Part shown: piece by piece, positions 1,217-57,540 of the stretch | Layout: every line of letters begins with the position of its first letter | How positions within the stretch are numbered: the stretch's first letter is position 1 | Source of the DNA: Octopus vulgaris | Lineage: Eukaryota | Direction of reading: 5' to 3' | Assembly (NCBI GenBank): GCA_951406725.2 | Contig: OX597815.1 | Span: 26,722,001 to 26,786,000 of the forward strand | Length of the DNA: 64,000 nucleotides | Translations under genes and position numbers: made by a program | The notes under the pieces: model-generated | Databases searched by the model: none | Told to the model about the DNA's origin: nothing | The model's input: the letters and a program-made list of their open reading frames with translations, nothing else

Positions 1217-1231
1217 AGCGCCACCTATAGG
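1217..1231 (-). promoter_or_regulatory. CTCF-like motif (CCTATAGGTGGCGCT) in the conserved upstream module
   Basis: Matches the CTCF core AG(A/G)(G/T)GGC(A/G)C. It recurs once per gene unit at 8465, 11886, 21219, 30081, 37767 and 41708, is degenerate at 16565, 25829 and 34796, and has an inverted homolog at 57511. Confidence 0.5.
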
Positions 1232-1338
1232 AGAAGTCAAGTAAAGGGACACAACTCCAGCTGCACTTGATCTTCGCGCCAATTAAATTATTAATTACGT
1301 TGATTAATTTCTCATCATTGACTCGTTTATATCTCGAT

Positions 1339-1347
1339 CGGGTAAGT
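1339..1347 (+). promoter_or_regulatory. Candidate 5' splice donor CGG|GTAAGT of a non-coding first exon
   Basis: Consensus GTAAGT is conserved in paralogous modules (GT at 1342, 8590, 12014, 21347, 30209, 34921, 37893, 41836). No transcript evidence. Confidence 0.4.
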
Positions 1348-1862
1348 TGAGCAAGATTTCCTTTAAGGCTGTAATCATGGGTACTTGTCAATTGTCGTGG
1401 TCCCGGTTTTGCACACGCGAATTCGCGCGCGCGCGCGCGTCAGACGTAGGTACTCGATACTCGAGATCCTACGAGGTGACTTGCGCAGTGCAGAATTCGC
1501 GCGTGCGCGTTAAACCCCCCCTAAAAAAAAAGGTGTTGGATTTCACTAAAAATATATATGTGTGTGTGTGTGTATATAACATTTTCAATTTTACACAAAA
1601 AAATTACATAGTCGCTTTCCTCGCGGATTTACAGAGAAATGAATTAATTACTATTTTACAGAATAAAATTAATGAATTAATTATATAAATTAAATAATTC
1701 TTGAAAATTAATTAATATTAATAATATTTTTTGAACAAAGTAAATAATTTATAAAACTTGGTTAATAATTTTTTTTACACAAACGCGAACGTATATAATT
1801 TGTGAAACTTTTTTTTTTTTACAGACGTATATAATTTGGTAAACTTAATGAATTAATTTCTT

Positions 1863-2865: not shown

Positions 2866-2867
<2 letters not shown>

Positions 2868-2934
<67 letters not shown>

Positions 2935-2936
2935 TA
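2868..2936. repeat. (TA)n microsatellite in the foldback spacer
   Basis: Directly visible; shorter in copy 2 (~55767-55804). Confidence 0.95.
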
Positions 2937-5897: not shown

Positions 5898-6941
5898 ATG
5901 AATAATTTAACTGAAGCAAAAAGCGATGATACAAGAGTGAAGCAATGTTTCTGTGATATTTGTGGTAAATCATTCAATTATCATAGTCACTTGACTACTC
6001 ACAGACGTATGCATACAGGAGAAAAGCCATTTCATTGTGATATTTGTGGTAAATCATTCTGTCGAAGCAGCCACGTTATTAGACACAAATTTACACATAC
6101 AGGAGAAAAGCCTTATCATTGTGGTATCTGTGGTAAATCATTCTCTCAACGGTGTACCTTGACTGAACACAAAAGTGTTCATACAGGAGAAAAGGCATAT
6201 CATTGTGAAATTTGTGGTAAATCAATCTCTAAAAGGAGTGAATTGACTAATCACAAACGTACACATACAGGAGAAAAGCCATATCATTGTGATATCTGTG
6301 GTAAATCATTCTCTCAAAGGAGTACCTTGACTCAACACAAACGTGTTCATACAGGAGAAAAGGCATATCATTGTGAAATTTGTGGTAAATCATTCTCTAA
6401 AAGGAGTGAATTGACTAATCACAAACGTACACATACAGGAGAAAAGCCATATCATTGTGATATCTGTGGTAAATCATTCTCTCAAAGGAGTACCTTGACT
6501 CAACACAAACGTGTTCATACAGGAGAAAAGGCATATCATTGTGAAATTTGTGGTAAATCATTCTCTAAAAGGAGTCATTTGACTCGACATAAATATGTAC
6601 ATACAGGAGAAAAGCCATATCATTGTGATATTTGTGGTAAATCGTTCTGTCAAAGCAGCAACGTGACTATTCACAAATGTACACATACAGGAGAAAAGCC
6701 ATATGATTGTGATATCTGTGGTAAATCATTCTCTCAAAGGAGTAGCCTGACTCAGCATAAATATGTACATACAGGAGAAAAGCCATATCATTGTGAAATT
6801 TGTGGTAAATCATTCTCTATAAGGAGTAATTTGACTCGGCATAAATATACACATACAGGAGAAAAGCCATATGATTGTGATATCTGTGGTAAATCATTCT
6901 CTCAAAGGAGTAACTTGACTAAGCACAGAGCATCGCTATAG
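5898..6941 (+). CDS. C2H2 zinc-finger protein, type A (11 complete fingers + 1 truncated)
   Basis: Tandem CxxC-x12-HxxxH with TGEKPY linkers. The conserved ATG at 5898 is chosen over the GTG at 5868. Confidence 0.9.
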
Positions 6942-7715: not shown

Positions 7716-10504
7716 GAGTTGGTGAAATCTGTGGTAAATCATTCCTTCCAAGGAGTAATTCGACTCGGCACAAACATACACACACGGGAGAAAAGCCATA
7801 TCATTGGAAGTTTAAAGAATGTTAACCCTTCTGGCAATCCTCTGACTTTGATGTAAAGGTGTCTTGTTTTCTTAAGTTTTGAATTAGAATTTTCTACCAA
7901 ACCTTAGTCAGAATTTATGATCCTGAAACTAGGTTAATGATAACCACCAAGTTATTTTACAAACACAAACACTTGTTGCACGCACTGTTCTCATACTACA
8001 GCGGACACATGTACATGCACTCAGACAGGACACTGTGCTAGCACCCATACTTTCTCCTACTTTACACATCTGTAAATAAAATCTTTCTCAAATAGGACGG
8101 TTGTCGTCTTCATTATTGCTTTTAGCACTTTTTCATTTATGTCATGTATTTGGCTTGTTTTGTTAGGGCGGCCGTGCGGCGTTAAAGGGAGAAATTTCTG
8201 TCACCAACTCCTTTCGTGTGGTCTTACTCCCTACAAGGGTTTTGTGACATATTAGTAGGTCACCGGAATTCATTCAATAAAGAAAAGAAATTACAGTGAT
8301 TCCGGGATGGGTTGTGGGTGTGCGATTTCTCACCCAACCCATTTTCTAAACAAAAATGAGGGGTTTGCAGCATATTAAGAGGTCAGGGCAATTGATTCCA
8401 CACAAAAAATCCGAAAATATTGAAAATATTGCAGGTGAAGGAATCAAAATAGACCCCAGTGAGTAGCGCCACCTATAGGAGAAGTCATGTAAAGGGAAAC
8501 AACTCCAGCTGCACTTGATCTTCGCGCCAATTAAATTATTAATTTCGTTGATTAATTACTCATCACTGACTCGTTTATATCTCGATCGGGTAAGTTGAGC
8601 AAGATTTCCTTTAAGGCTGTAATCATGATAATAATACTTCTAATGTTATTGGAAGATAATAGATTTCTGTGAACTTCTCTCGATGTTGGAGTAATTATTT
8701 CGAAGCGGGAACCTGACCACAATTAGGAAAATAGATTTGTTCGTCTGAATAACTTCCAAACTGAAATATTAATCTGTTGTTTATGGGAACCTATAATCCA
8801 CTCATACATGTGGTATAAAGGAAATTAAGCGTAATGTTGATGGTGTTTCCCGGAGAGGCAATCGAGAAAAAGAAATAGTGCAACGGGTGTAAAAGAAAAA
8901 GGTGTAGAAAAGGAATCTGAAGAGAAAAATGTGCAGAAAGCAATGAGGGTGAGAGGCCTTCGGAAAATTGACAAGATCCGAAGGTTTTCCCTCGTAGCTT
9001 TTAGGGAAATGGGGTTTTTGTAACTGAAATTTTATATGAATACGTTTCAAACGGTATAGGTCACGATTATAAAGTAACTTGTTGGGAAAATGTTTTGCGA
9101 TGGGGTCAGGAGAGGACTTCGGTAAATCCGATGTTTTTCCCTCGTAACTTTGAGGAAAATGGATATCTTTCTATTTCACATCCACGTAGGGAACGAATCT
9201 GAAAACAAAAATACTCTGAAAGCAACGGGGTGGGGAGAGGCCTTCGGAAGATTCACAAGATCCGAGGTTTTTCCCTCGTAACTTAGAGGAAAATATAATC
9301 CTTTTGAAATAACAAATTAAGTTTTTCCTCAGGAACTTGTATGCTAAACATCTTTTTGTCAAGATTCCTTCGTTAGTCCCCCTTTCGTTATAGCACATGC
9401 TGTTAACTATAAACACATGAAATATTCTTAACTGCTTCATTTGTGTATGTAAATTTCTAAGAAGAAAACGAGATCGATGTCAAAAAAGCTGTATTACTGA
9501 TGATATTTCATGAATTTAGTGCTGACAACACTTGCTCTCATGCTCACTGAAACTAACAAATGAATCTTGACGAGTCTGAGACTCAGAAACGCTTAATTGT
9601 CGCTTTACAAAACTGAAGAGGAACGAGAAGCTGTTAAGCATTTTGTCTGAGAAGCAAATGATTCTTCCTCTAAATAATACACGGTTGACCAGAATCCATG
9701 ATTCGCTTGTTCGTTAAATTTTTTTATATATCATTTATGAATACATTTATTAAGAAATAAAATAGTAAATTTAAATAATAAAAGAAGCATGCTAGGAAAG
9801 ATCACTAATAATTGAGTCATGAATTCTTACCCTCTCTGTAGGATTATATGAACCCTTCGAAGTTACAGTAATCACATAGAAACATTAAGAAAATATGCTT
9901 CCTTGTCTTAGATATCTCAAACATTGATGTTTCTTTGAATGTTATGAGTAAACGAATTTAGAGTGTAAAACATTTATGTCGTTATGCCATTCTTTCAATG
10001 CCTCAATTAACTCTGACCCCTAAAAACATTTAATAGATAACAATGTTAAATTTTGCAACGTTGAATTAGAGTATTTAACTATTCTCTTTATCTTGATGTT
10101 TCTTTTCCTATTTCAGAATATCACCTTATGTTCACCCACAAGAAACTTCTTCATTCAGATGTGCCTTTCATATTTTTACATCGTTTCACCAACTAAAGCG
10201 AGATGACATGATTTATCAGCAACATTCATCAATACATCAGAATTTATATGAATACAATATTTTTCTTGTCTTCACTGTTTGGAACGTAGAGGAAGTGATT
10301 GCCTTACAGGTTAATTAAGGTGGGATAACTTTACAAACGAGTTGACGATTTTCTATCAGCTCATTTAGATATTATGATCACAGATGAAATAAAGATAGCT
10401 CCAAATTCTTTTCTAGAAAGAGTGGCAGAACTGAAAACAAAGTTGTTTATAGAGATGAAGGAAACATTATTATTGTGATATGTATAATAAATTATTCTTT
10501 CACA

Positions 10505-11239
10505 ATGAATAAATTAACTGAAGCAAAAAGCGATGATACAAGAGTGAAACAATATTTCTGTGACATTTGTGGTAAATTATTCAATTATAGTAGTCACTTG
10601 ACTAGTCACAGACATATCCATACTGAAGAAAAGCCATATGACTGTGAAATCTGTGGTAAATCATTCTCTAAAAGGAGTGACTTGACTAAACACAAACGTA
10701 CGCATACAGGAGAAAAGCCATATCATTGTGAAATCTGTGGTAAATCATTCTGTCAAAAAAGTGACTTGACTAAGCACAATCGTACACATACAGGAGAAAT
10801 GCCACATCATTGTGATATCTGTGGTAAATTATTCTCACGTAGGAGTGGGTTGACTATGCACAAACAAACGCATACAGGAGAAAAGCCATATTGTTGTGAA
10901 ATCTGTGGTAAATCATTCTGTCAAAGTAGTGACTTGACTAAGCACAATCGTACCCATACAGGAGAAAGGCCATATCATTGTGATATCTGTGGTGTATCAT
11001 TCTGTGACAGGAGTAATTTGACTCGGCATATATATACACATACAGGAGAAATGCCATGTCAATGTGATATTTGTGGTAAATCATTCTGTCGAAGAAGTGA
11101 CGTGACTAGACACAAATATACACATACAGGACAAAAGCCATATGATTGTGATATCTGTGGTAAATCTTTCTCTGTAAGGAGCAATTCGATTCGGCACAAA
11201 CACACACACGGGAGAAAAGCCATATCATTGGAAGTTTAA
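10505..11239 (+). CDS. C2H2 zinc-finger protein, type B (8 fingers)
   Basis: Eight canonical fingers. It ends through a 2-bp slip in a (CA)n run, giving GRKAISLEV*. Confidence 0.88.
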   Translation: MNKLTEAKSDDTRVKQYFCDICGKLFNYSSHLTSHRHIHTEEKPYDCEICGKSFSKRSDLTKHKRTHTGEKPYHCEICGKSFCQKSDLTKHNRTHTGEMPHHCDICGKLFSRRSGLTMHKQTHTGEKPYCCEICGKSFCQSSDLTKHNRTHTGERPYHCDICGVSFCDRSNLTRHIYTHTGEMPCQCDICGKSFCRRSDVTRHKYTHTGQKPYDCDICGKSFSVRSNSIRHKHTHGRKAISLEV

Positions 11240-13639
11240 AGAATGTTAACCCTTCTGATACCAAACCAGCTGGCACCCCCTTTGAATCTGCTGTAAAAGT
11301 TTCATGTTTTCTTAAGTTTTGAATTGAAATTTTCCACCAAACCTTAGTCAGAATTTATGATCCTGAAACTAGGTTGATGATAACTACCAAGTTATTTTAC
11401 AAACACTTGTTGCACGCACTGTTCTTGTATTACAGCGGACACACAGACACATGTGCTAGCACCCATACTTTATCCTACTGTGCACATCTGTAAATAAAGT
11501 CTTCTCTCTCAAACAGTAGAACGGTTGTCGTCTTCATTATTGCTTTTGGCACATTTTCAGTTATGTCATGTATTTGGCTTCTTTTATTAGGGCAGTGTTA
11601 AAGGGAGAAATTTCTGTCACCAACTCCTTTCGTGTGGTCTTACTCCCTACAAGGGTTTTGTGACATTAGTAGGTCATCGGAATTCATTCAATAAAGAAAA
11701 GAAATTCCGGGATGGGGTGTGGGGGTGCGATTTCTCACCCAACCCATTTTCTGAACAAAAATGAGGGGTTTGCAGCATATTAAGAGGTCAGGGTATTTGA
11801 TTCCACACAAAAAATCCGAGATTTTTTTTTTTTTTTCTCATTGCAAATTTTGCGGGTGAAGGGATCAAAATGGACCCCAGTGAGTAGCGCCACCTATAGG
11901 AGAAGTCATGTAAGGGGAAACAACTCCAGCTGCACTTGATCTTCGCGCCAATTAAATTATTAATTACGTTGATTAATTACTCATCACTGACTCGTTGTTT
12001 ATATCTGGATCGGGTAAGTTGAGCAAGATTTCCTTTAAGGCTGTTATCATGATAATAATACTACTAATGATAATGGAAGATAATAGATTTCTGTGAACTT
12101 CTCTCGATGTTGGAGTAATTATTTCGAAGCGGGAACCTGACGACAATTAGGAAAATAGATTTGTTCGTCTGAATAACTTCCAAACTGAAATGTTAATCTG
12201 TTGTTTATGGGAACCTATAATCCACTATTACATGTGGTATAAAGGAAATTAAGGGTAATGTTGACGTTCCGAGAAAAAGAAATAGTGCAACGGGTGTAAA
12301 AGAAAAAGGTGTAGAAAAGGAATCTGAAGAGAAAAATGTGCAGAAAGCAATGAGGGTGAGAGGCCTTCGGAAAATTAACAAGATCCGAAGGTTTTTCCCT
12401 CGTAACTTTTACGGAAATGATTTTATATGAATACGTTTCAAACGGTATAGGTCACGATTATAAAGAAATTTGTGGGGAAATTGTTTTCCGATGGGGTCAG
12501 GAGAGGACTTCGGTAAATCCGATGTTTTTCCCTCGTAACTTTGAGGAAAATATAATCCTTTTGAAATAACAAATTAAGTTTTTCCTCAGGAACTTCTATG
12601 CGAAACATCCTTTTGTCAAGATTCGTTCGTTATTGCACATGCTGTTAACTATAAACACATGAAATATTATCACTTATAATACACTTTCTTGATGCACATA
12701 CATATTTGTGTGGAATGTAGATAATAAAATCAATGTGGCAGTTTAAACTTGAGAAAAGCCTTGAATATTTATAATGTGCAAGTTATAGATGCATGTATGC
12801 ATTTCTGTGCATGTGTGTGTTTTCGGCTATGGTTCCTTCGTAACTGCTTCATTTGTGTATGTAAATTTCTGAATGCATTTATTAAGAAATAAAATAGTAA
12901 ATTTAAATAATAAAAGAAGCATGCTAGGAAAGATCACTAATAATTGAGTCATGAATTCTTACCCTCTCTGTAGGATTATATGAACCCTTCGAAGTTACAG
13001 TAATCACATAGAAACATTAAGAAAATATGCTTCCTTGTCTTAGATATCTCAAACATTGATGTTTCTTTTAAAGTTATGAGTAAACGAATTTAGAGTGTAA
13101 AACATTTATGTCGTTATGCCATTCTTTCAATGCCTCAATTAACTCTGACCCCTAAAAACATTTGATAGATGACAATGTTAAATTTTGCAACGTTGAATTA
13201 GTGTATCATCTAACTATTCTCTTTATCTTGATGTTTCTTTTCCTATTTCAGAATATCACCTTATGTTGACACACAAGAAACCTCTTCATTCAGATGTGCC
13301 TTTCATATTTTGACGTCGTTTCATCAACTAAAGCAAGATGACATGATTTATCAGCAACATTCATCAATACATCAGAATTTATATGAATACAATATTTTTC
13401 TTGTCTTCACTGTTTGGAATGTAGAGGAAGTGATTGGCTTACAGGTTAGTTAAGGTGGGATAACTTTACAAACGAGTTGACAATTTTCTATCAGCTCATT
13501 TAGATATTATGATCACAGATGAAAGAAAGATAGCTCCAAATTCTTTTCTAGAAAGAGTGGCAGAACTGAAAACAAAGATGTTTATAGAGATGAAGGAAAC
13601 ATTATTATTGTGATATGTATAATAAATTATTCTTTCACA

Positions 13640-14686
13640 ATGAAAAATTTAACTGAAGCAAAAAGCGATGTTACAAGAGTGAAGCAATGTTTCTGTGATA
13701 TTTGTGGTAAATCATTCAATTATCATAGTCACTTGACTACTCACAGACGTATCCATACAGGAGAAAAGCCATTTCATTGTGATATTTGTGGTAAATCATT
13801 CGGTCGAAGCAACAGCGTGACTAGACACAAATTTACACATACAGGAGAAAAGCCATATCATTGTGATATCTGTGGTAAATCATTCTCTCAAAGGAGTACC
13901 TTGACTGAACACAAAAGTGTTCATACAGGAGAAAAGCAATATCGTTGTGAAATCTGTGGTAAATCATTCTCTCAAAGGAGTAGCTTCACTCAGCATAAAT
14001 ATGTACATACAGGAGAAAAGGCATATCATTGTGATATCTGTGGTAATTCATTCTCTCAAAGGAGTAGCTTCACTCAGCATAAATATGTACATACAGGAGA
14101 AAAGGCATATCATTGTGAATTTTGTGGTAGATCATTCTTTAAAAGGAGTAATTTGACTCGACATAAATATACACATAAAGGAGACAAGGCATGTCATTGT
14201 GAAATTTGTGGTAAATCATTCTTTAAAAGGAGTCACTTGACTCAACATAAATATACACATACAGGAGAAAAGCCATATCATTGTGATATCTGTGGTAAAT
14301 CATTCTCTCAACGGAGTACCTTGACTCAACACAAAACTGTTCATACAGGAGAAAAGCCATATCATTGTGATATCTGTGGTAATTCATTCTCTCAAAGGAG
14401 TAGCTTCACTCAGCATAAATATGTACATACAGGAGAAACGGCATGTCATTGTGAAATCTGTGGTAAATCATTCTCTAAAAGGAGTCATTTGACTCGACAT
14501 AAATATACACATACAGGAGAAAAGCCATATCATTGTGATATCTGTGGTAAATCATTCTCTCAACGGAGTACCTTGACTCAACACAAAACTGTTCATACAG
14601 GAGAAAAGCCATATCATTGTGATATCTGTGGTAATTCATTCTCTCAAAGGAGTACTTTGACTCAACACAAAACTGTTCATACATGA
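13640..14686 (+). CDS. C2H2 zinc-finger protein, type A' (12 fingers; TGA in linker, further fingers follow)
   Basis: Twelve fingers. The stop is GGA>TGA in the TGEKP linker, and finger-coding sequence continues to ~15005. Confidence 0.88.
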
Positions 14687-15795: not shown

Positions 15796-17997
15796 GTTGG
15801 TGAAACCTGTGGTAAATCATTCCTTCCAAGGAGTAATTCGACTCGGCACAAACACACACACGGGAGAAAAGCCATATCATTGGAAGTTTAAAGAATGTTA
15901 ACCCTTCTGATACCAACCCAGCTGGCACCCCTCTGACTTTGCTGTAAAAATGTCTTGTTATCTTAAGTTTCGAATTGAAATTTTCTACCAAACCTTAGTC
16001 AGAATTTATGATCCTGAAACTAGGTTAATGATAACCACCAAGTTATTTTACAAACACAAACAATTGTTGCACGCACTGTTCTCATACTACAGCAGACACA
16101 TGTGCATGCACTCAGACACGACACTGTGCTAGCACCCATACTTTATCCTACTGTACACATCTGTAAATAAAGTCTTCTCTCTCAAACAGTAGAACGGTTG
16201 TCTTTCTCATTATTGCTTTTGGCCCTTATTCAGTTATGTCATGTATTTGGCTTCTTTTGTTAGGGCGGCGATGCATCGTTAAAGGAAGAAATTTCTATCA
16301 CCAACTCATTTCGTGTGGTCTTACTCCCTACAAGGGTTTTGTGACATTAGTAGGTCACCGGAATTCATTCAATAAAGAAAAGAGATTCCGGGATGGGGTG
16401 TGGGGGTGCGATTTCTCACCCAACCCATTTTCTGAACAAAAATGAGGGGTTTGCAGCATATTAAGAGGTCAGGGTATTTGACTCCACACAAAAAATCCGA
16501 GTTTTTTTATTTTTTCTCATTGCAAATTTTGCGGGTGAAGGGATCAAAATTGACCCCAGTGAGTAGCCCCACATATAGGAGATGTCATGTAAGGGGAAAC
16601 AACTCCAGCTGCACTTGATCTTCGCGCCAATTAAGTTATTAATTACGTTGATAATCCTTTTGAAATAGTAAATTAGTCCCCTTTCGTTATTGCACATGCT
16701 GTTAACTATAAACACATGAAATATTATCACTTATAATACACTTTCTTGATGCACATACATATTTCTGCTCTACATTTGTGTGGAATGTAGATAATAAAAT
16801 CAATGTGGCAGTTTAAACTTGAGAAAAGCCTTGCATATTTATAACGCACAAGTTATAGATGCATGTGTGTGTTTTCGGCTAGGGTTCCTTCTTAACTGCT
16901 TCATTTGTGTATGTAAATTTCTAAGAAGAAAACGAGATCGATGTCAAAAAAGCTGTATTACTGATGATATTTCATGAATTTAGTGCTGACAACACTTGCT
17001 CTCATGCTCACTGAAACTAACAAATGAATCTTGACAAGTCTGAGACGCAAAAACGCTTAAATGTCGCTTTACAAAACTGAAGAGGAACGAGAAGCTGTTA
17101 AGCATTATGTCTGAGAAGCAAATGATTCTTCCTCTAAATAATACACGGTTGACCAGAATCCATGACTCACTTGTTCGTTAAATTTTTTTATATATCATTT
17201 CTGAATGCATTTATTAAGAAATAAAATAGTAAATTTAAATGATAAAAGAAGCATGCTAGGAAAGATGACTAATAATTGAGTCATGAATTCTTACCCTCTC
17301 TGTAGGATTATATGAACCCTTCGAAGTTACAGTAATCACATAGAAGGGAAAACATGGAAACATTGAGAAAATATGCTTCCTTGTCTTAGATATCTCAAAC
17401 ATTGATGTTTCTTTGAATGTTATGAGTAAACGAATTTAGAGTGTAACACATTTATGTTGTTATGCCATTCTTTCAATGCCTCAATGAACTCTGACCCCTA
17501 AAAACATTTCATAGATAACAATGTTAAATTATGCAACATTGAATTAGTGTATCATTTAACTATTTTCTTTATCTTGATGTTTCTTTTCCTATTTCAGAAT
17601 ATCACCTTATGTTGACACACAAGAAACTTCTTCATTCAGATGTGCCTTTCATATTTTAACGTCGTTTCATCAACTGAAGCAAGATGACATAATTTATCAG
17701 CAGCATTTATCAATACATAAAAATTTATAAGAATACAATCTAAGAATACAATATTTTTCTTTTCTTCACTGTTTGGAATGTAGACGAAGTGATTGCCTTA
17801 CAGGTTAATTAAGGTTGGCTAACTTTACAAACGAGTTGACAATTTTCACCTGCTCATTTAGATATTATGATCACAGGTGAAAGAAACACAGCTCCAAATT
17901 CTTTTCTAGAAAAAGTGGCAGAACTAAAAACAAAGATGTTTATAGAGATGAAGGAAACAATATTATTGTGATCTGTATAATAAATTATTCTCTCATA

Positions 17998-18729
17998 ATG
18001 AATAATTTAACTGAATCAAAAAATAGTGATACAAGAGAGAAACAATATTTCTGTGATATCTGTGGTAAATCATTCTCTCAAAGGATTACCTTGACTGAAC
18101 ACAAACATACACATACAGGAGAAAAGCCATATCGTTGTGATATCTGTGGTAAATCAGTCTCTCAAAGGAGTAACTTGACTAAGCACAAACGTACACATAC
18201 AGGAGAAAGGCCATATCATTGTGAAATCTGTGGTAAATCATTCTGTCAAAAGAGTAACTTGACTGAACACAAACGCACACATACAGGAGGAAAGCCATAT
18301 CATTGTGATATCTGTGGTAAATCATTCTCTCAAAGGAGTCACTTGACTCTACACAAGCATACACATACAGGAGAAAAGCCATATCGTTGTGATACCTGTG
18401 GTAAATCAGTCTCTCAAAGGAGTAACTTGACTAAGCACAAACGTACACATACAGGAGAAAGGCCATATCATTGTGATATCTGTGGTAAATCATTCTGTCA
18501 AAAGATTACCTTGACTGAACACAAGCATACACATACAGGAGAAAAGCCATATCATTGTGATACCTGTGGTAAATCATTCTCTCAAAGGAGTCACTTGACT
18601 CAACACAAACGCACACATACGGGAGAAAAGCCATATCATTGTGACATCTGTGGTAAATCATTTTCCCAAAATTGTCACTTGATTAATCACAGATATATTC
18701 ATACTGGGAGAAAAACCATATCACTGTGA
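17998..18729 (+). CDS. C2H2 zinc-finger protein, type C (8 fingers)
   Basis: Eight fingers. An extra G in the linker (ACTGGGAGAAAA) shifts the frame to GRKTISL*. Confidence 0.85.
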
Positions 18730-22987: not shown

Positions 22988-24034
22988 ATGAATAATTTAA
23001 CTGAAGCAAAAAGCGATGATACAAGAGTGAAGCAATGTTTCTGTGATATTTGTGGTAAATCATTCAATTATCATAGTCAGTTGACTACTCACAGACGTAT
23101 CCATACAGGAGAAAAGCCATTTCATTGTGATATTTGTGGTAAATCATTCGGTCGAAGCAGCAGCGTGACTAGACACAAATTTACACATACAGGAGAAAAG
23201 CCATATCATTGTGAAATCTGTGGTAAATCATTCTCTCAACGGAGTACCTTGACTCAACACAAAAGTGTTCATACAGGAGAAAAGCAATATCGTTGTGAAA
23301 TCTGTGGTAAATCATTCTCTCAAAGGAGTAGCTTCACTCAGCATAAATATGTACATACAGGAGAAAAGCCATATCATTGTGATATCTGTGGTAATTCATT
23401 CTCTCAAAGGAGTAGCTTCACTCAGCATAAATATGTACATACAGGAGAAAAGGCATATCATTGTGAATTTTGTGGTAAATCATTCTTTAAAAGGAGTAAT
23501 TTGACTCGACATAAATATACACATAAAGGAGACAAGGCATGTCATTGTGAAATTTGTGGTAAATCATTCTCTAAAAGGAGTCACTTGACTCGACATAAAT
23601 ATACACATACAGGAGAAAAGCCATATCATTGTGATATCTGTGGTAAATCATTCTCTCAACGGAGTACCTTGACTCAACACAAAACTGTTCATACAGGAGA
23701 AAAGCCATATCATTGTGATATCTGTGGTAATTCATTCTCTCTAAGGAATAGCTTCACTCAGCATAAATATGTACATACAGGAGAAACGGCATGTCATTGT
23801 GAAATCTGTGGTAAATCATTCTCTAAAAGGAGTCATTTGACTCGACATAAATATACACATACAGGAGAAAAGCCATATCATTGTGATATCTGTGGTAAAT
23901 CATTCTCTCAACGGAGTACCTTGACTCAACACAAAACTGTTCATACAGGAGAAAAGCCATATCATTGTGATATCTGTGGTAATTCATTCTCTCAAAGGAG
24001 TACTTTGACTCAACACAAACGTGTTCATACATGA
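22988..24034 (+). CDS. C2H2 zinc-finger protein, type A' (12 fingers)
   Basis: Paralog of 13640 with the same linker TGA. The frame stays open beyond it to TAG 24427. Confidence 0.88.
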
Positions 24035-27262: not shown

Positions 27263-28082
<820 letters not shown>

Positions 28083-36230: not shown

Positions 36231-36858
<628 letters not shown>

Positions 36859-38559: not shown

Positions 38560-39558
38560 ATGAATAAATTAACTGAAGCAAAAAGCGATGATACAAGAGT
38601 GAAACAATATTTCTGTGACATTTGTGGTAAATTATTCCATTCTAGTAGTCACTTGACTAGTCACAGACGTATCCATACTGGAGAAAAGCCATATCATTGT
38701 GATATCTGTGGTAAATCATTCTCACATAGTAGTGGCTTGACTATGCACAAACGAACACATACAGGGGAAAAGCCATATTGTTGTGAAATCTGTGGTAAAT
38801 CATTCTGTGCAAGTAGTGACTTGACTAAGCATAATCGTACACATACAGGAGAAAAGCCATTTAATTGTGATATCTGTGGTAAATCGTTCTCTGAAAGGGG
38901 GTCCTTGAATCACCACAAACATGTTCATACAGGAGAAAGGCCATATTGTTGTGAAATCTGTGGTAAATCATTCTGTCAAATGAGTGACTTGACTAAGCAC
39001 AATCGTACCCATACAGGAGAAAGGCCATATCATTGTGATATCTGTGGTGTATCATTCTGTGACAGGAGTAATTTGACTCGGCATAAATATACACATACAG
39101 GAGAAGAGCCATGTCAATGTGATATTTGTGGTAAATCAATCTGTCGAAGCATTGACATGACTAGACACAAACGTACTCATACAGGGGAAAAGCCATATCA
39201 TTGTGATATCTGTGGTAAATCATTCCCTGAAAGAAATAACTTGACTATGCACAAATATACACATACAGGAGAAAAGCCATATCATTGTGATATCTGTGGT
39301 AAATCATTCTCTCAAAGAAATAACTTGCCTACGCACAAACGTACACATACCGGAGAAAAGCCATATCATTGTGATATCTGTGGTAAATCATTCTCTGTAA
39401 GGAGTAATTTCACTACACACACACGTACACATACAGGAGAAAAGCCATATCATTGTGAAATCTGTGGTAAATCATTCTCTGTAAGGTGTAACTTGACTAC
39501 ACACAGATGTACACTTACAGGAGAAAAGCCAAATCATTGGAAGTTTAAAGAATGTTAA
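38560..39558 (+). CDS. C2H2 zinc-finger protein, type B-like (10 fingers + 1 degenerate)
   Basis: Shares N-terminus and fingers (DRSNLTR, SDLTKHNR) with the gene at 10505; ends HWKFKEC*. Confidence 0.88.
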   Translation: MNKLTEAKSDDTRVKQYFCDICGKLFHSSSHLTSHRRIHTGEKPYHCDICGKSFSHSSGLTMHKRTHTGEKPYCCEICGKSFCASSDLTKHNRTHTGEKPFNCDICGKSFSERGSLNHHKHVHTGERPYCCEICGKSFCQMSDLTKHNRTHTGERPYHCDICGVSFCDRSNLTRHKYTHTGEEPCQCDICGKSICRSIDMTRHKRTHTGEKPYHCDICGKSFPERNNLTMHKYTHTGEKPYHCDICGKSFSQRNNLPTHKRTHTGEKPYHCDICGKSFSVRSNFTTHTRTHTGEKPYHCEICGKSFSVRCNLTTHRCTLTGEKPNHWKFKEC

Positions 39559-40918: not shown

Positions 40919-43086
40919 AGTTGGTGAAACCTGTGGTAAATCATTCCTTCCAAGGAGTAATTCAACTCGGCACAAACACACACACGGGAGAAAAGCCATA
41001 TCATTGGAAGTTTAAAGAATGTTAACCCTTCTGATACCAACCCAGCTGGCACCCCTCTGACTTTGCTGTAAAAATGTCTTGTTATCTTAAGTTTCGAATT
41101 GAAATTTTCTACCAAACCTTAGTCACAATTTATGATCCTGAAACTAGGTTAATGATAATCACCAAGTTATTTTACAAACACACAAACACAAACAATTGTT
41201 GCATGCACTGTTCTCATACTACAGCAGACACTTATACATGCACTCGGACATGACACTGTGCTAGCACCCATACTTTATCCTACTGTACACATCTGTAAAT
41301 AAAGTCTTCTCTCAAACAGTAGAACGGTTGTCGTCTTCATTATTGCTTTTGGCACTTTTTCAGTTATGTCATGTATTTGGCTTGTTCTGTTAGGGCGGCC
41401 GTGCGGCGTTAAAGGAAGAAATTTCTGTCACCAACTCCTTTCGTGTGGTCTTACTCCCTACAAGGGTTTTGTGACATATTAGTAGGTCACCGGAATTCAT
41501 TCAATAAAGAAAAGAAATCCCAGTGATTCCGGGATGAGGTGTGGGGGTGCGATTTCTCACCCAACCCATTTTCTGAACAAAAATGAGGGGTTTGCAGCAT
41601 ATTAAGAGGTCAGGGTATTTCATTCCACAGAAAAAATCTGAGATTTTTTTTTTTTTTTCTCATTGCAAATTTTGCGGGTGAAAGAATCAAAATTGACCCC
41701 AGTGAGTAGCGCCACCTATAGGAGAGGTCATGTAAGGGGAAGCAACTCCAGCTGCACTTGATCTTCGCGCCAATTGAGTTGTTAATTACGTTGATTAATT
41801 TCTCATCACTGACTCGTTGTTTATAACTGGATCGGGTAAGTTGAGCAAGATTTCCTTTAAGGCTGTAATCATGATAATAATACTACTAATGTTAATGGAA
41901 GATAATATATTTATGTGAACTCCTCTCGATGTTGGAGTAATTATTTCGAAGCGGGAACCTGAGAGGAAATCGAGAAAAAGAAATAGTGCAACGGGTATAA
42001 AAGAAAAAGGTGTAGAAAAGGAATCTGAAGAGAAAAATATGCAGAAAGCAATGAGGGTGAGAGGCCTTCGGAAAATTGACAAGATCCGAAGATTTTAGGG
42101 AAATGGGTTTTTATTTTTTTGTAAATGAAATTTAACATAAATACGTTTAAAACGTTATAGGTCACGATTATAAAGAAACTTGTTGGGAAAATGTTTTGCG
42201 AAGGGGTCAGGAGAGGACTTCGAAAAATCCGAAGTTTTCCCCTCGTAACTTTGAGGAAAATATAATCCTTTTGAAATAATAAATTAAGTTTTTCCAGAGC
42301 AACTTGTATGCTAAGCATCCTTTTGTCAAGATTCATTCGTTAGTCCCCCTTTCGTTATAGCACATGCTGTTAACTATAAACACATGAAATATTATCACTT
42401 ATAATACACTTTCTTGATGCACTTACATATTTCTGCTCTGTATTTGTGTGGAATGTAGATAACAAAATAAATGTCACAGTTTAAACTTGAGAAAAGCCTT
42501 GAATATTTATAATGTGCAAGTTATAGATGTATGTATGCATTTCTGTGCATGTGTGTGTTTTCGGCTAGGGTTCCTTCTTAGCTGCTTCATTTGTGTATGT
42601 AAATTTCTAAAAAGATAAAAGGAGATCGATGTCAAAAAAGCTGTATTACTGATGATATAGAATAAGCAAGTTAAGAAAGATTACTAATAATTACCAACAA
42701 CAACACTGAACACCTTTTTGATCTCCATGTTTCTAACACACGTGGACATGCCTACAAAGTCAGAAAACAACACAGCTCCCATGACTTTCGGAAACATTTT
42801 TTCACGCTCAGAGTTGCTGAAGCATGGAATAAACTGCCTGCGTCAGTTGTTAACTGCCATGACACTGCATCATTTAAGGCCCTCATGCTTTCCGAAATCC
42901 GCCGAAACTACACCTGATTATATATACACTTTAGATGAGTTGTAGTGCACCTGTATTATTATTATTATTATTATAATTGAGTAAAACTATATGAAACCAC
43001 CCTTTGAAGTTACAGTAATCTCATAGAATTAAGAACATAGCAACATTGAGAAAATATGATTCCTCGTCTTGGATATATCAAACATT

Positions 43087-43810: not shown

Positions 43811-44953
43811 ATGAATAAATTAATTGAAGCAAAAAACGATGATACAAGTGTGAAACAATATTTCTGTGATATCTGTGGTAAATCATTCAATTATAATAGT
43901 CGCTTGACTAGTCACAGACGTATCCATACTGGAGAAAAACCATATCACTGTGATATTTGTGATAAATCATTTTTTTCAAATAGCACTTTAACTGAACACA
44001 AACGTACACATACAGGCGAAAAACCTTATCATTGTAATATCTGTGGTAAATCATTCTTGTGTAGGACTCACTTGATTCAACACAAGAATACACATACAGT
44101 TGAAAAGCCATATCATTGTGATATCTGTGGTAAATCATCCTCTCAAAAGAGTGACTTGACTAAACACACACATACACACACAGGAGAAAAGCCATATCAT
44201 TGTAATATCTGTGGTAAATCATTCTCTCAAAAGAGTAACTTGACTCATCACAAATATACACATACAGGAGAAAAGCCATATCATTGTGAAATCTGTGGTA
44301 AATCATTCTCTCAAAGGAGTCACTTGACTCAACACAAACGCACACATACAGGAGAAAAGCCATATCATTGTGAAATCTGTGGTAAATCATTCTCTCAAAC
44401 GAGTGAATTGACTACACACAAACGCACACATACAGGAGAAAAACCATATCATTGCGACATCTGTGCTAAATCATTCTCGCGTAGGAGTATTTTGACTGAA
44501 CACAGACATACACATACAGGAGAAAAGCCATATCATTGTGATATCTGTGGTAATTCATTCTCTCAAAGGAGTTACTTGACTCATCACAAATATACACATA
44601 CAGGAGAAAAGCCATATCATTGTGATATCTGTGGTAAATCATTCTCTCAAAGCAGTGACTTGACTAATCACAAACATACACATGCAACAGAAAAGCCATA
44701 TTGTGATATTTGTGGTAGATCCTTCTCTCAAATGTGTAACTTGATTCAGCACAAACGTACACATACAGGCGAAAAGCCATATCATTGTGATATCTGTGGT
44801 AAATCATTCTCTCATAGGAGTAACTTGACTAAGCACAAACGTACACATACAGGAGAAAAGCCATATCATTGTGATATGTGTGGTAAATTATTCTCTGATA
44901 TGAGTAACTTGACTAAACACAAGTGTACACATACAGAAGCCATATCATTGTGA
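43811..44953 (+). CDS. C2H2 zinc-finger protein, type D (13 fingers)
   Basis: Thirteen fingers. A linker deletion gives TEAISL*, and decayed fingers follow to ~45330. Confidence 0.9.
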
Positions 44954-47602: not shown

Positions 47603-47603
47603 A

Positions 47604-51399: not shown

Positions 51400-52239
51400 T
51401 GTTAAGTCAAGTGATACTTTTTAGAAAATGATTTACCACAGATATCAGAATATGGCTTTTCCCCTGTATGTGTATGTTTGTGTTGAGTCAAGTCCTATAA
51501 GAGATTGATTTAGCACAGATATCGCAATGATATTTCTTTTCTCTTCGATATGTATGTGCATGTTGAATCAAGTTACACCCATAAGAGAATGATTTACCAC
51601 ATACTACAAAGATATGGCTTTACTGTTGCATGTGTATACTCGTGTTTAGTCAAGTTACTCCTTTTAGAGAATGACCTATCACAATCATATGGCTTTTCTC
51701 CTGAATGAGTACGTTTATGTTGAGTCAAGTTACTCCTACACGAGAATGATTTACCACAGATCTCACAATGAAACGGCTCTTCTCCTGTATGTGTACGTTT
51801 GTGTTCAGTCAAGGTACTCCTTCGAGAATGATTTACCACAGATATCACAATGATATGGCTTTTGTCCTGTATGTGTATGTTTGTGGTGAGCCAAGTTACT
51901 CCTACACGAGAATGATTTACCACAGATCTCACAATGAAACGGCTCTTCTCCTGTATGTGTACGTTTGTGTTCAGTCAAGGTACTCCTTCGAGAGAATGAT
52001 TTACCACAGATATCACAATGATATGGCTTTTGTCCTGTATGTGTATGTTTGTGGTGAGCCAAGTTACTCCTACACGAGAATGATTTACTACAGATATCAC
52101 AATCATATGGCTTTTCCCCAGTATGTGTATGCTTGTGTTCAGTCAAGGTATTCCTATAAGAGAATGATTTACCACAGATTTCACAGGAATGTTGTTTCTC
52201 TTTTGAATCTGGGTTTTTTGGTTTAGTTAAGTTGCTCAT
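51400..52239 (-). pseudogene. C2H2 zinc-finger gene on the minus strand, frameshifted in finger 5 (4-finger ORF 52239-51805)
   Basis: ATG at 52239. A 2-bp loss (TTCGAGAATG vs TTCGAGAGAATG) at ~51825 shifts the frame. Fingers continue in another frame to 51594 and decay to ~51400. Confidence 0.8.
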
Positions 52240-54269
52240 TATAAGAGAATAATTTATTATACATATCACAATTATAATGTTTCCTTCATCTTTATAAACA
52301 TCTTTGTTTTCAGTTCTGCAACATTTTCTAGAAAAGAATTTGGAGCTGTGTTTCTTTCTTCTGTAATCTTACTTAATATCTAAATCAGCTGAAAGAAATC
52401 GTCAACTCGTTTGTAAAGTTATCCAACCTTAATTAACCAGTAAGGCATTCACTTTCTCTACATTCCAAACAGTGAAGACAAGAAAAATATTGTATTCATA
52501 GATTGTATTCTTATAAATTTTGTACTGATAAATCATGTTATCTTGCTTTAGTTGGTGAAACGATGTCAAAATATGAAAGGCACATCTGAATGAAGAAGTT
52601 TCTTGTGTGTCAACATAAGGTGATATTCTGAAATAGGAAAAGAAACATCAAGATAAAGAGAATAGTTAGATGATACACTAATTCAATGTTGCAAAATTTA
52701 ACATTGTCATCTATTAAATGTTTTTAGGGGTCAGAGTTCCTTGAGGCATTGAAAGACTGGCACAATGACATGCTCTACACACTACATTTGTTTTCTCATG
52801 CCAATCAAAAGAAAATCAATGTTTGGGCGTAACTTCGGTATAGGTACCGGATACATTTCAAGAAAGTGTTTTTTTTTATATAGGGTGGGGGGGGGGCAGA
52901 AAAGGGTTTCTGTTATCTTCAGAAATGTAAACAAAGCCACTTCTGGTACCTATAACGAAGGATCGTAAATGTTTGATATATCGAAGACGAGGAATCATAT
53001 TTTCTCAATGTTGCTATGTTCTTAATTCTATGAGATGACTGTAACCTCAAAGGGTACGTATAGTTTTAGAGCAAGGACCAGAATTCATGACTCAATTATT
53101 AGTAATCTTTCTTAACTTGCTTATTCTATATCATCAGTAATACAGCTTTTTTGACATCGTTCTCCTTTTATCTTTTTAGAAATTTACATACACAAATGAA
53201 GCAGCTAAGAAGGAACCCTAGCCGAAAACACACACTTGCACAGAAATGCATACATACATCTATAACTTGCACATTATAAATATGCAAGGCTTTTCTCAAG
53301 TTTAAACTGCGACGTTGATTTTGTTATCTACATTCCACACAAATACAGAGAAGAAATATGTATGTGCATCAAGAAAGTGTATTATAAGTGATAATATTTC
53401 ATGTGTTTATAGTTAACAGCATGTGCTGCCCCGAACGCGGAAACATACAAACGAATCTTGACAAATCGTAACAATTACAAGCCTGTTAGGGTATACATAA
53501 AAAAATCCGGAACAACGGTGTGTCAGTGTATTGTTTATTTCGCTTCCATCAGTCACACATGGTGAAAGAGAGTTCGAACACACATTTTAGTCTCCAAAGT
53601 CCCTTCCCTGCGGACCAAGTCGCTAACGAGGCCACACAATAGGCCCTGTCTGTAGTTCGTGTATTTTTGAGTCTTTGGGTAGGGCCCAGTACATCTTAAG
53701 TTTCAAAACACGAACTCCTTCCAGTTCGACTTTGCCTTGTATTCTTTCCAGGTAAACAAAATAAGGAGCTCCAATAGAAACGCATCTCTCCAAGAAAATG
53801 AAATGCAATTGAAAAAAAAAAGTCATGAAAATATATACAAAGTAAATGATGTATGCAAAAAAATTAGGAAGATTTATCTGTTTTTAAGTATTTTATACAA
53901 AAGAATAAAACAGAAGGAGAACGTTGCTGGCCCCGGCCAAAATGTGAAACCATCATCATTATTGCTTTATTCATCCCGAAAAAGAAGTCCAGCTCTCAGT
54001 GGAAATACGGCCGAGGTCGTATTTGCCTTTCGTCGTTTTCGAGAAATACTGGGTTCCATGTATTCGACTTCTGGCCCCGGGCCAAAATGTGGAACCATCA
54101 TCATCATTATCAAAGTAACTTTAAAGTAAATCTTCGTCAACTTGTCAATTAATTAGTGTCTCATAAACAACAGGACAACATTAATTAATGTGGTATTCTT
54201 CAATCGGTTTCCTCTCGTTTTACTAATTAATTATGCCACATTACTCTTATTTTATAAATTAATTTCCTT

Positions 54270-57149
54270 GGTAGTTGTCTATTGTCGTGGTCCCGGTTTC
54301 GCACACGCGAATTCGCGCGCGCGCGCGCCAGACGTAGGTAGTCGATACTCGAGATCCTACGAGGTGACATGCGCAGTGCAGAATTCGCGCATGCGCGTTA
54401 AACCCCCCCCCCCCTAAAAAAAAGGGGGTTGGATTTCACTAAAAATATATATGTGTGTGTGTGTGTGTGTATATATAACATTTTCAATTTTAGACAAAAA
54501 AATTACATAGTCGCTTTCCTCGCGGATTTACAGATAAATGAATTAATTACTATTTTACAGAATAAAATTAATGAATTAATTATATAAATTAAATAATTCT
54601 TGAAAATCAATTAATATTAATAATATTTTTTGAACAAAGTAAATAATTTATAAAACTTGGTTAATAATTTTTTTTACACAAACGCGAACGTATATAATTT
54701 GTGAAACTTTTTTTTTTTTACAGACGTATATAATTTGGTAAACTTAATGAATTAATTTCTTCTCATCATCATCATCGTTTAACGTCCGTTCTCCATGCCA
54801 GCATGGGTTGGACGGTTCGACCGGGGATCTGGGAAGCCAGAAGGCTGCACCAGACTCCAGTCTTATCTGGCAATGTTTCTACAGCTGGATGCCCTTCCTA
54901 ACGCCAACCACTCCGAGAGTGTAGTGGGTGCTTTTTACATGCCACCCGCACAGGTGCCAGGCGAGGCTGGCAACGGCCACGGTCGGATTGGTGCCAGTCG
55001 AGGCGGCTCTGGCATCGGCCACGATTCGGATAGTGCTTTTTACGTACCACCAGTCCAGGGGTCCTGGCATTTGCCGGGTGTCACACTTGCCCCAACATGT
55101 CTTCGCAAGCAAAGGGGGGTTGGCATGGGTGCCTGTCGTGGGATGAGGTTCGATATCAACTTCGCTTGCCTCAACAGGTCTTTGTGTATAAATGTATAAA
55201 TTTTTCGCACTAAATTCTTTCCGTAGAATTTATCAATAAACGCGCAAAATTATTCCGTAGAATTTATCAAATTAAAAACGCAAAATTAATATATTTTTTG
55301 AAATTGCAAATTATTTAGAATATAAAACAAATGAAGTTAAATTTTAAAAATAAATGTCATATACTTATACTCTGTAAGGTGCTGTGTTCACACTTCAATT
55401 TACTATTTTCTAGAAATGTTGCTTTTCTAATTGAAACAATTTTTCTCAATCTCCATTTAAAAGTCCATAATGCCTCTTGAGACATATCAAAATGAACAAC
55501 TTTGAATTACGCGGCGGCGGTGGTGGTGTGAGGTTCTAATTTTTTTTTCTGATCTCTCTTTGCCCCCTCTTTATCTCAGTTGTTCATTCCGCTAATATTT
55601 AGAAAAATTTTCGCGCCCAATTTTTGTTGTCGCGGGAAAAGATGAACGATTTAAAATAAATATATCTTAATTGTAGTGTGAGAAAGTATATATATTCTGA
55701 TGACAAAATATATTATCTTTCAAAAACATCCCAAATTTATAGACTATATCGTGTAGGTTTAAGAAATATATATATATATAGATATATATACATATACATA
55801 TATAACAGAGAACGAAACATCTTTCATCTGTCTCCCCACCACACCTCCATCTAGGGGGGCAAAGAGAGATCAGAAAAAAAAATTAGAACCTCACACCACC
55901 ACCGCCGCCGCGTAATTCAAAGTTGTTCATTTTGATATGTCTCAAGAGGCATTATGGACTTTTAAATGGAGATTGAGAAAAATTGTTTCAATTAAAAAAG
56001 CAACATTTCTAGAAAATAGTAAATTGAAGTGTGAACACAGCACCTTACAGAGTATAAGTATATGACATTTATTTTTAAAATTTAACTTCATTTGTTTTAT
56101 ATTCTAAATAATTTGCAATTTCAAAAAATATATTAATTTTGCGTTTTTTAATTTGATAAATTCTACGGAATAATTTTGCGCGTTTTTTGATAAATTCTAC
56201 GGAAAGAATTTAGTGCGAAAAATTTATACATTTATACACAAAGACCTGTTGAGGCAAGCGAAGTTGATATCGAACCTCATCCCACGACAGGCACCCATGC
56301 CAACCCCCTTTGCTTGCGAAGACATGTTGGGGCAAGTGTGACACCCGGCAAATGCCAGGACCCCTGGACTGGTGGTACGTAAAAAGCACTATCCGAATCG
56401 TGGCCGATGCCAGAGCCGCCTCGACTGGCACCAATCCGACCGTGGCCGTTGCCAGCCTCGCCTGGCACCTGTGCGGGTGGCATGTAAAAAGCACCCACTA
56501 CACTCTCGGAGTGGTTGGCGTTAGGAAGGGCATCCAGCTGTAGAAACATTGCCAGATAAGACTGGAGTCTGGTGCAGCCTTCTGGCTTCCCAGATCCCCG
56601 GTCGAACCGTCCAACCCATGCTGGCATGGAGAACGGACGTTAAACGATGATGATGATGAGAAGAAATTAATTCATTAAGTTTACCAAATTATATACGTCT
56701 GTAAAAAAAAAAAAAGTTTCACAAATTATATACGTTCGCGTTTGTGTAAAAAAAAATTATTAACCAAGTTTTATAAATTATTTACTTTGTTCAAAAAATA
56801 TTATTAATATTAATTGATTTTCAAGAATTATTTAATTTATATAATTAATTCATTAATTTTATTCTGTAAAATAGTAATTAATTCATTTATCTGTAAATCC
56901 GCGAGGAAAGCGACTATGTAATTTTTTTGTGTAAAATTGAAAATGTTATATATACACACACATACACACACATATATATTTTTAGTGAAATCCAACCCCT
57001 TTTTTTTTTAGGGGGGGGTTTAACGCGCATGCGCGAATTCTGCACTGCGCATGTCACCTCGTAGGATCTCGAGCATCGAGTACCTACGTCTGGCGCGCGC
57101 GCGCGAATTCGCGTGTGCGAAACCGGGACCACGACAATAGACAAGTACC
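54270..57149. mobile_element. Non-autonomous foldback (Mutator/MULE-like) DNA transposon, copy 2
   Basis: Arms 54270-55567 and ~55855-57149. The 9-bp TSD AATTTCCTT lies at 54261-54269 and 57150-57158. Same spacer as copy 1. Confidence 0.93.
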
Positions 57150-57159
57150 AATTTCCTTT

Positions 57160-57540
57160 ATATCACATGAAACAGTCGATCATAGGTTTTCATAAACAAT
57201 AAATCAACATTTCTGTTTGGAAATTATTAATTAAGACGAGGAAATGTATTCTCCTGTTCTGTTTTCGTTTCAAAATAATTGCTGTAACATCGAGAGGTTC
57301 ACAGAATTCTATTATTTACATTATTAGTATTAATAGTATTATTATCACCATTACAACCTTAAAGTAAATCTTCGTCAAATTACAGTATTCAGATACAAAC
57401 AGCGACTCAGTTATTCGGCAATTAAGCACCTTAATTAATAATTTAATTGAATGGATGTTTGAAGTGCTGTAGAAGTTATTTCCCTTGTGATAATTCTATT
57501 CCTCAATTCTCCAATAGATGGCTCTACTGACTGGCTGGAT
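57160..57540 (-). promoter_or_regulatory. Diverged inverted copy of the conserved upstream module (for the minus-strand ZNF gene)
   Basis: The reverse complement aligns with 4277-4466 and 1207-1370, including CCAATAGATGGCTCT at 57511-57525. Confidence 0.6.

What the first reader, a model, noticed from the sequence alone, without database searches (positions are those of the whole stretch)
1217..57525. One CTCF-like site in front of every zinc-finger gene, all oriented the same way relative to the gene
Seen: CCTATAG(G/A)TGGCGCT lies antisense to the gene at 1217, 8465, 11886, 21219, 30081 and 41708, with a variant at 37767. A diverged homolog CCAATAGATGGCTCT at 57511 serves the minus-strand gene. 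The G/A variation falls on a position that is degenerate in the CTCF consensus. The module persists even where most of the intervening DNA is deleted (unit at 37.7-38.2 kb). Established: tandem co-oriented CTCF sites at each promoter underlie promoter choice in vertebrate clustered protocadherins. Inference: this ZNF array may use per-gene insulation or loop-based promoter selection.
Basis: partly seen in the sequence, partly recalled or inferred. Interest (0 to 1): 0.7.

Follow-up and report, generated by a model that had tools for sequence, protein, structure and literature searches.

The report
Duplicated zinc-finger promoter with CTCF-like motif
Eleven copies of one zinc-finger gene each carry the same short motif, which resembles a binding site of the chromatin protein CTCF, because the whole gene was duplicated together with its likely promoter; the motif is no better preserved than the DNA around it, so it is likely an ordinary promoter element rather than a gene-choice switch.

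Summary
The eight sites are at the stated coordinates. Three more were missed (16565, 25829, 34796), each changed at a fixed position of the CTCF consensus. All 11 zinc-finger units carry the homologous 15-mer. They are copies of one ancestral site inside a gene unit duplicated whole, so one site per gene and the shared orientation need no further cause. New here: one probable-RNA run joins a GT..AG intron (37893-38171), and deep RNA cover starts about 40 nt after the motif, so it likely lies in the proximal promoter before a non-coding first exon. It fits the published human consensus at 12 of 14 positions in 8 of 11 units, about a 1% chance for one 100-bp promoter. Best reading: an ordinary promoter-proximal CTCF-type site (about 0.5), as reported for annelid promoters, or a passenger match (0.33). 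Protocadherin-like promoter choice has no support inside the window (0.07). Octopus origin is inferred, not shown. Interest is low.

The parts
1217..1231 (-). Unit 1 motif, 12 of 14 to the published CTCF consensus; 110 nt before donor-like GT at 1342
8465..8479 (-). Unit 2 motif, 12 of 14; donor-like GT at 8590
11886..11900 (-). Unit 3 motif, 12 of 14; donor-like GT at 12014
16565..16579 (-).
21219..21233 (-). Unit 5 motif, 12 of 14 (A variant); donor-like GT at 21347
25829..25843 (-). Unit 6 motif, degraded (10 of 14), missed; donor deleted as in unit 4 (recent copy of it)
30081..30095 (-). Unit 7 motif, 12 of 14 (A variant); donor-like GT at 30209
34796..34810 (-). Unit 8 motif, degraded (11 of 14), missed; its zinc-finger exon is a truncated remnant
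37767..37781 (-). Unit 9 motif, 12 of 14 (A variant plus change at the degenerate S position)
37822..37892 (+). Likely non-coding exon 1 of unit 9; 5' end approximate, taken from where the spliced contig begins
   Evidence: contig of depth 64.9 with 70 letters on the short side of the joint; probable-RNA run, strand and start not shown by contigs
37893..38171 (+). Intron 1 of unit 9 (279 nt, GT..AG)
   Evidence: joint in 1 of 2 probable-RNA runs, 0 of 2 DNA runs; splice-site motifs
41708..41722 (-). Unit 10 motif, 12 of 14; donor-like GT at 41836
57511..57525 (+). Unit 11 motif (gene on - strand), 12 of 14 with a different pair of mismatches; older diverged 5' module
5898..6941 (+). Unit 1 C2H2 ORF, 11 fingers
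10505..11239 (+). Unit 2 C2H2 ORF, 8 fingers
13640..14686 (+). Unit 3 C2H2 ORF, 12 fingers
17998..18729 (+). Unit 4 C2H2 ORF, 8 fingers, frame open
22988..24034 (+). Unit 5 C2H2 ORF, 12 fingers
27263..27994 (+). Unit 6 C2H2 ORF, 7 fingers, frame open
31868..32998 (+). Unit 7 C2H2 ORF, 13 fingers
36231..36860 (+). Unit 8 exon 2: truncated zinc-finger remnant without the family's start region
38560..39558 (+). Unit 9 C2H2 ORF, 10 fingers
43811..44953 (+). Unit 10 C2H2 ORF, 13 fingers
51805..52239 (-). Unit 11 C2H2 ORF, 4 fingers before a frameshift

Best explanation
The motif is one position of a two-exon C2H2 zinc-finger gene unit that was copied whole eleven times; it lies just upstream of a likely non-coding first exon and would act, if bound, as an ordinary promoter-proximal CTCF-type site that helps keep each copy's promoter open, not as a selector among copies. 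Shown: the duplication, the fixed position, the 12-of-14 consensus match and the lack of extra conservation. Supported by one run: the spliced first exon. Inferred: the promoter position, CTCF binding, and any effect on transcription.
For: All ten plus-strand units share at least about 234 nt upstream of the motif at 79-96% identity, and the motif-to-exon-1 stretch at 86-95%. A donor-like GT lies 110-113 nt after the motif in 8 of 10 of them, and 127 nt after it in unit 11. A contig of probable-RNA run X1 (depth 64.9) joins 37892 to 38172 across GT..AG; neither DNA run shows this joint. Deep RNA cover begins near 37822 in X1 and near 37836-37840 in X9, two studies, while DNA runs cover all 30 bins. 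A match of 12 of 14 within 100 bp of one promoter has a chance of about 0.005-0.013 by base composition. In the 7 units with both donor and zinc-finger ORF, the 2 motif changes are both at degenerate positions; 0 damaging changes were seen against 2.3 expected (P about 0.10, subset chosen after seeing the data). In the annelid Dimorphilus, CTCF motifs are the commonest motif in open chromatin, mostly single, in promoters and without directional arrangement (PMC7854359, passages). Euprymna encodes CTCF and cohesin subunits (PMC9023564, passages).
Against: No excess conservation: 4 of 15 against 64 of 233 changes, P(X<=obs) 0.61; 108 of 234 sliding windows have fewer variable columns than the motif. 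Across the oldest split the 30-nt block round the motif is 27 of 30 identical to unit 7, but 19 of 304 downstream windows do as well, and units 2, 3 and 8 give 24, 24 and 22 of 30. Two adjacent consensus positions are off in every plus-strand copy, and 5 other 12-of-14 matches lie elsewhere in the window (2.9 expected). Units 4 and 6 keep open zinc-finger frames with a 10-of-14 site. The joint is seen in 1 of 2 RNA-like runs. Those runs are only guessed to be RNA, come from organisms or paralogs a few percent diverged, and as contigs cannot show a start site. A depth-3.5 contig in X1 does cross the motif. No binding or chromatin data.
Confidence: 0.5

Rival explanations
1. Passenger: a chance CTCF-like 14-mer in the ancestral promoter region, unbound and multiplied only by duplication.
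For: The motif changes at the same rate as its flanks. It differs from unit 11 at 2-3 positions where about 3 are expected at 78% identity. It is damaged in 3 of 11 units. Five other matches of equal score lie elsewhere in the window.
Against: Low chance (about 1%) of such a match in the 100 bp before one start site. The damaging changes in plus-strand units fall only in those with a deleted donor or truncated ORF (2 against 0; Fisher p 0.33, not significant).
Confidence: 0.33
2. A real promoter element bound by another zinc-finger factor, for example a YY1/Pho-type protein (core recalled, not from a call) or one of the cluster's own products.
For: Proximal position. The A variant in 4 of 11 units resembles the YY1-type core (recalled).
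Against: The other 7 of 11 units lack that core. The whole 14-mer fits the CTCF consensus better. No matrix scan could be run.
Confidence: 0.1
3. Protocadherin-like system: each promoter's CTCF site stalls cohesin so that a shared enhancer outside the window picks one or a few zinc-finger paralogs per cell.
For: One site at a fixed distance per promoter; 10 of 11 co-oriented on the chromosome. CTCF-like motifs are reported at cephalopod domain borders and loop anchors (PMC9023564, PMC13652810; passages). A review proposes such regulation for cephalopod PCDH and C2H2 clusters as a testable idea (PMC10658181, passage). Cephalopod C2H2 paralogs fall into different expression modules (PMC12513265).
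Against: No excess conservation, unlike IgH V-gene sites, which are described as far more conserved than their surroundings (PMC6746451). Orientation follows the gene: unit 11 is inverted with its gene, so units 10 and 11 are divergent. No forward site at 12 of 14 or better lies left of the ten reverse sites, and no second site per promoter was found. CTCF orientation patterns are absent in echinoderms, flies and an annelid (PMC13317027, PMC7854359).
Confidence: 0.07

Closest known systems
Promoter-proximal single CTCF motifs of the annelid Dimorphilus gyrociliatus (PMC7854359; passages read)
   Same: One CTCF-type motif close to a likely transcription start, orientation tied to no neighbouring site.
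   Different: There the motifs lie in measured open chromatin of unrelated genes. Here they are copies of one ancestral site with no chromatin data.
Conserved sequence element (CSE, a CTCF site) of vertebrate clustered protocadherin promoters (PMC7811963, PMC4978886; passages read)
   Same: One CTCF-like site with a CGCT end at a fixed distance in each promoter of a tandem array.
   Different: The CSE is bound by CTCF, kept from frog to mammal, and faces reverse sites in a downstream enhancer; alpha promoters have a second exonic site. Here there is no binding data, no excess conservation and no partner in view. By the forward convention quoted in PMC5291250, the site is reverse to the gene, whereas the review calls protocadherin promoter sites forward (that both use the same convention is recalled).
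CTCF sites of immunoglobulin heavy-chain V genes (PMC6746451; passages read)
   Same: Sites multiplied with tandem gene segments, at a fixed distance and in one orientation relative to transcription.
   Different: The IgH sites are bound in vitro and in vivo and are described as far more conserved than their flanks. This motif is not more conserved than its flanks.
Expanded, clustered C2H2 zinc-finger genes of coleoid cephalopods (PMC9068888, PMC9795677, PMC12513265; passages read)
   Same: Tandem cluster of multi-finger C2H2 genes; no Pfam-type effector region is evident in the short N-termini.
   Different: The words CTCF and promoter occur 0 times in PMC12513265 and PMC9068888. The octopus assignment of this window rests on recalled repeat families and finger style, not on a call.

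Membership tests
CTCF binding site | Match to the core consensus CCASYAGRKGGCRS (human, as quoted in PMC6746451) | tested here: inconclusive
   12 of 14 in 8 of 11 units, 11 of 14 in 1, 10 of 14 in 2; no site in the window reaches 13 or 14. No weight matrix was available.
CTCF binding site | Motif more conserved than flanking DNA | tested here: not met
   4 of 15 against 64 of 233 changes; deepest split not significant. Low power.
CTCF binding site | Occupied by CTCF in vivo or in vitro | not testable with these tools
   No ChIP, CUT&RUN or raw ATAC reads were offered.
CTCF binding site | The organism encodes CTCF with conserved fingers 3-7 | not tested
   No genome held. CTCF is reported for Euprymna (PMC9023564).
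Protocadherin-type promoter-choice array | One site at a fixed distance in each promoter | tested here: met
   110-113 nt before the donor in 8 units, 127 nt in unit 11; explained by duplication.
Protocadherin-type promoter-choice array | All promoter sites co-oriented on the chromosome and facing reverse sites at a shared enhancer | tested here: inconclusive
   10 of 11 co-oriented; unit 11 inverted; no facing site for units 1-10 inside the window; DNA outside the window not available.
Protocadherin-type promoter-choice array | Second site about 700 bp downstream (alpha cluster only) | tested here: not met
   None at 12 of 14 or better at a shared place in the units. Beta and gamma promoters lack it too, so this weighs little.
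Protocadherin-type promoter-choice array | Site conserved beyond neighbouring DNA across paralogs | tested here: not met
Protocadherin-type promoter-choice array | Stochastic, cell-by-cell choice of paralog through enhancer loops | not testable with these tools
   Needs paralog-resolved single-cell data and Micro-C.
Promoter-proximal CTCF motif (annelid type) | Single motif close to the transcription start | tested here: inconclusive
   Spliced contig begins about 40 nt after the motif in one probable-RNA run; cover begins about 55 nt after it in a second. Contigs cannot show a start.
Promoter-proximal CTCF motif (annelid type) | Lies in open chromatin | not testable with these tools
   No ATAC data. 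Two foldback insertions and one small inverted-repeat element within about 400 nt of a motif are only a hint.

The most novel reading that the evidence does not exclude
An invertebrate, likely an octopus, has independently built a protocadherin-like choice system for transcription-factor genes: every promoter of a C2H2 zinc-finger cluster carries an oriented CTCF site, a distant enhancer picks paralogs cell by cell, and copies that lose their exon-1 donor or reading frame also lose the site.
Probability: 0.07. Interest if true: 0.8.

Novelty: new member of a known kind. Interest (0 to 1): 0.25.

Why it matters
As it stands this is an ordinary result: a shared promoter motif in a young gene array is what whole-gene duplication gives. 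The useful gain is the gene anatomy (motif, likely non-coding exon 1, intron, single zinc-finger exon) and a natural allelic series of intact and damaged sites that makes a binding test cheap. I found no description of promoters of cephalopod C2H2 clusters in paper searches, which cover only the open-access library. If CTCF binding and cell-by-cell paralog choice were shown, it would answer an open question, whether loop extrusion regulates the large cephalopod gene clusters, which PMC10658181 raises as untested.

Tried and rejected
Genome-wide scan of the motif and of other zinc-finger or protocadherin clusters: not possible, no genome held. Metagenome scan with an exon-1 anchor chosen to be independent of the motif: 0 matches. 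Taxon by protein search: not decisive. One Octopus bimaculoides protein was among 120 listed (63% identity over 65% of a 75-residue query), none among 78 for the whole protein, and the reverse-transcriptase hits were unnamed. No listed run is on record as RNA; runs X1 and X9 are guesses. The 'other letters' table shows no row inside 37767-37781, but 194 rows were not shown, so I drew nothing from it. Depth was not used as copy number or expression level. The joint's absence from X9 is not evidence of absence. The shuffle significance was rejected because the copies are not independent. The idea that the motif marks a transposon end was considered: no terminal inverted repeat bounds the module in units 9 or 10, and the module occurs in the window only at the zinc-finger units; it is not excluded for older history. 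A first scan with a recalled degenerate consensus gave the same ranking of units; a paper search for that consensus found 0 papers, so the published one was used for the numbers reported. Earlier scan notes: nothing on this genome or sequence; one search listed 8 findings from other genomes. Supplements were not opened. The motif lists in the supplementary data of PMC13652810 and the motif logo in a figure of PMC9023564 may bear on how well this site fits the cephalopod CTCF motif.
Full report
Observation. Self-comparison and finger mapping show 10 plus-strand zinc-finger units and 1 minus-strand unit. Alignment of the 11 regions shows that all matches are the same position of one duplicated module. 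The shuffle control (mean 0.87, 0 of 100 reach 11) therefore says only that the region is duplicated. One site per gene and a fixed orientation to the gene follow from copying the unit whole, with one inversion.

Anatomy. In gene direction each unit reads: about 240-290 nt of shared upstream DNA, the motif, a donor-like GT 110-113 nt later (127 nt in unit 11), an intron, a shared acceptor, about 390 nt of likely 5' UTR, and one exon with 4-13 fingers. Units 4 and 6 have lost the donor by a deletion that starts 73 nt after the motif. Unit 8 has only a finger remnant. Unit 11 is frameshifted after 4 fingers. I laid 4 of the 24 listed runs on 37400-38700. A contig of probable-RNA run X1 at depth 64.9 skips 279 nt with GT..AG ends, matching the predicted donor (37893) and acceptor (38171). 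It is absent from both DNA runs and was not seen in the second RNA-like run. The contig's short side is 70 letters, so it begins near 37822, about 40 nt after the motif; cover in X9 begins near 37836-37840. Over the motif bin X1 has depth 3.5 and X9 has 0. Contigs cannot show a start or a strand, the runs are only guessed to be RNA, and the contig may come from a paralog. So the promoter position is likely, not proven.

CTCF likeness. Against the human consensus CCASYAGRKGGCRS (PMC6746451, passages), seven plus-strand copies miss positions 3 and 4, and unit 11 misses 4 and 13 (12 of 14 each). Unit 8 scores 11 and units 4 and 6 score 10. The window holds 13 sites at 12 of 14 and none better: 8 are unit sites and 5 lie elsewhere, against 2.9 expected. 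Counted once, as one ancestral site, a match this good within 100 bp on either strand has a chance of 0.005-0.013. That favours a real site moderately. No weight matrix or cephalopod motif was available to me.

Conservation. For units 1-10 (unit 11 left out because its upstream DNA is not homologous; columns with gaps dropped, 248 kept), the motif has 4 parsimony changes in 15 columns and the flanks 64 in 233 (0.27 each; P 0.61). Mean pairwise difference is 0.099 against 0.090. Against unit 11, whose 5' module is about 78% identical, the motif is 13 of 15 identical to units 5 and 7 (p 0.32). The 30-nt block around it is 27 of 30 (p 0.07), a level that 19 of 304 downstream windows also reach; units 2, 3 and 8 give 24, 24 and 22 of 30. 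One pattern points the other way: in the 7 units with donor and ORF both motif changes are at degenerate positions (0 damaging against 2.3 expected, P 0.10), and both damaging changes lie on the lineage of units 4, 6 and 8 (Fisher p 0.33). This split was made after seeing the data and rests on four events.

Promoter choice. In vertebrate protocadherin clusters, forward promoter sites face reverse sites at a downstream enhancer, and alpha promoters have a second site about 700 bp further on (PMC7811963, passages). The element is kept from frog to mammal (PMC4978886, passages). With the forward convention quoted in PMC5291250 (passages), units 1-10 are reverse and unit 11 is forward. The only forward site at 12 of 14 is unit 11's, so nothing in the window faces units 1-10; two reverse matches lie 1.2 and 4 kb to the right of unit 11. 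An enhancer left of the window cannot be excluded. CTCF and CTCF-like motifs are reported at cephalopod domain borders and loop anchors (PMC9023564, PMC13652810; passages), and a review names cohesin-based regulation of cephalopod PCDH and C2H2 clusters as an untested idea (PMC10658181, passages). Against this, echinoderm boundaries show no orientation pattern, as in flies (PMC13317027, passages). In the annelid Dimorphilus, CTCF motifs are mostly single, in promoters and without directional arrangement (PMC7854359, passages). That last pattern fits this locus best.

Organism. Not shown. The repeat families and finger style look like Octopus to me (recalled). Protein searches gave one O. bimaculoides hit among 120 listed and none among 78. 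Clustered C2H2 expansions in coleoids are known (PMC9068888, PMC9795677, passages; PMC12513265, first of 7 parts and passages). I also read passages of PMC8084297 and PMC10547256, which added background only. One earlier scan note from another genome (e1-7810261) suggested a transposon-end origin for CTCF-like motifs; I found no terminal repeats bounding this module.

Verdict. The feature is real, and its repetition is explained by duplication. The site is likely a promoter element: CTCF-bound and ordinary 0.5, passenger 0.33, other factor 0.10, promoter choice 0.07; these odds are my judgement. It resembles protocadherin and IgH promoter sites in layout but fails the conservation test, so it is not filed as such a system. 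Interest 0.25.

Noticed in passing
window 1380-4276 and 54270-57149: Two copies (96% alike) of a 2.9-kb foldback element with about 1.3-kb terminal inverted repeats and different 9-bp target duplications, each inserted in intron 1 of a zinc-finger unit (units 1 and 11), about 150 and 360 nt past the motif. Mutator-like by the 9-bp duplication (recalled). Its central loop holds a 12-of-14 CTCF-like match (2976, 55844)..
   Followed up: partly
window 52240-57525 (- strand): Unit 11 looks mosaic: its promoter, exon 1 and intron start are about 78% identical to the other units, while its acceptor region and 5' UTR are 92-98% identical (97.6% to unit 10). This suggests conversion or recombination with an older paralog family.
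   Followed up: partly
window 57583-57991: A 409-nt element with 30-nt terminal inverted repeats (87%) sits 57 nt upstream of the unit 11 motif; homology with the other units ends near it.
   Followed up: partly
window 16652 and 25916: Units 4 and 6 share a deletion that removes the end of exon 1, the donor and the start of intron 1, yet keep open zinc-finger frames of 243 aa.
   Followed up: partly
window 15300-33550: Units 4+5 and 6+7 form a recent two-gene tandem duplication of about 9.3 kb (98% and 95% identity in its halves).
   Followed up: yes
window 14686, 24034, 32998: The ORFs of units 3, 5 and 7 stop at a finger linker; in units 5 and 7 further fingers continue in frame behind the stop.
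   Followed up: no
window 41463-41636: The region upstream of the motif holds a diverged internal direct repeat (51 nt, 73%, spacing 123).
   Followed up: no
window 48835-50409 (- strand): LINE-type reverse transcriptase frames between units 10 and 11, with a second fragment near 59420-60200.
   Followed up: partly
window 62000-64000 (- strand): Degenerate finger remnants and 3' sequence of another minus-strand zinc-finger unit whose 5' end lies beyond the window.
   Followed up: no
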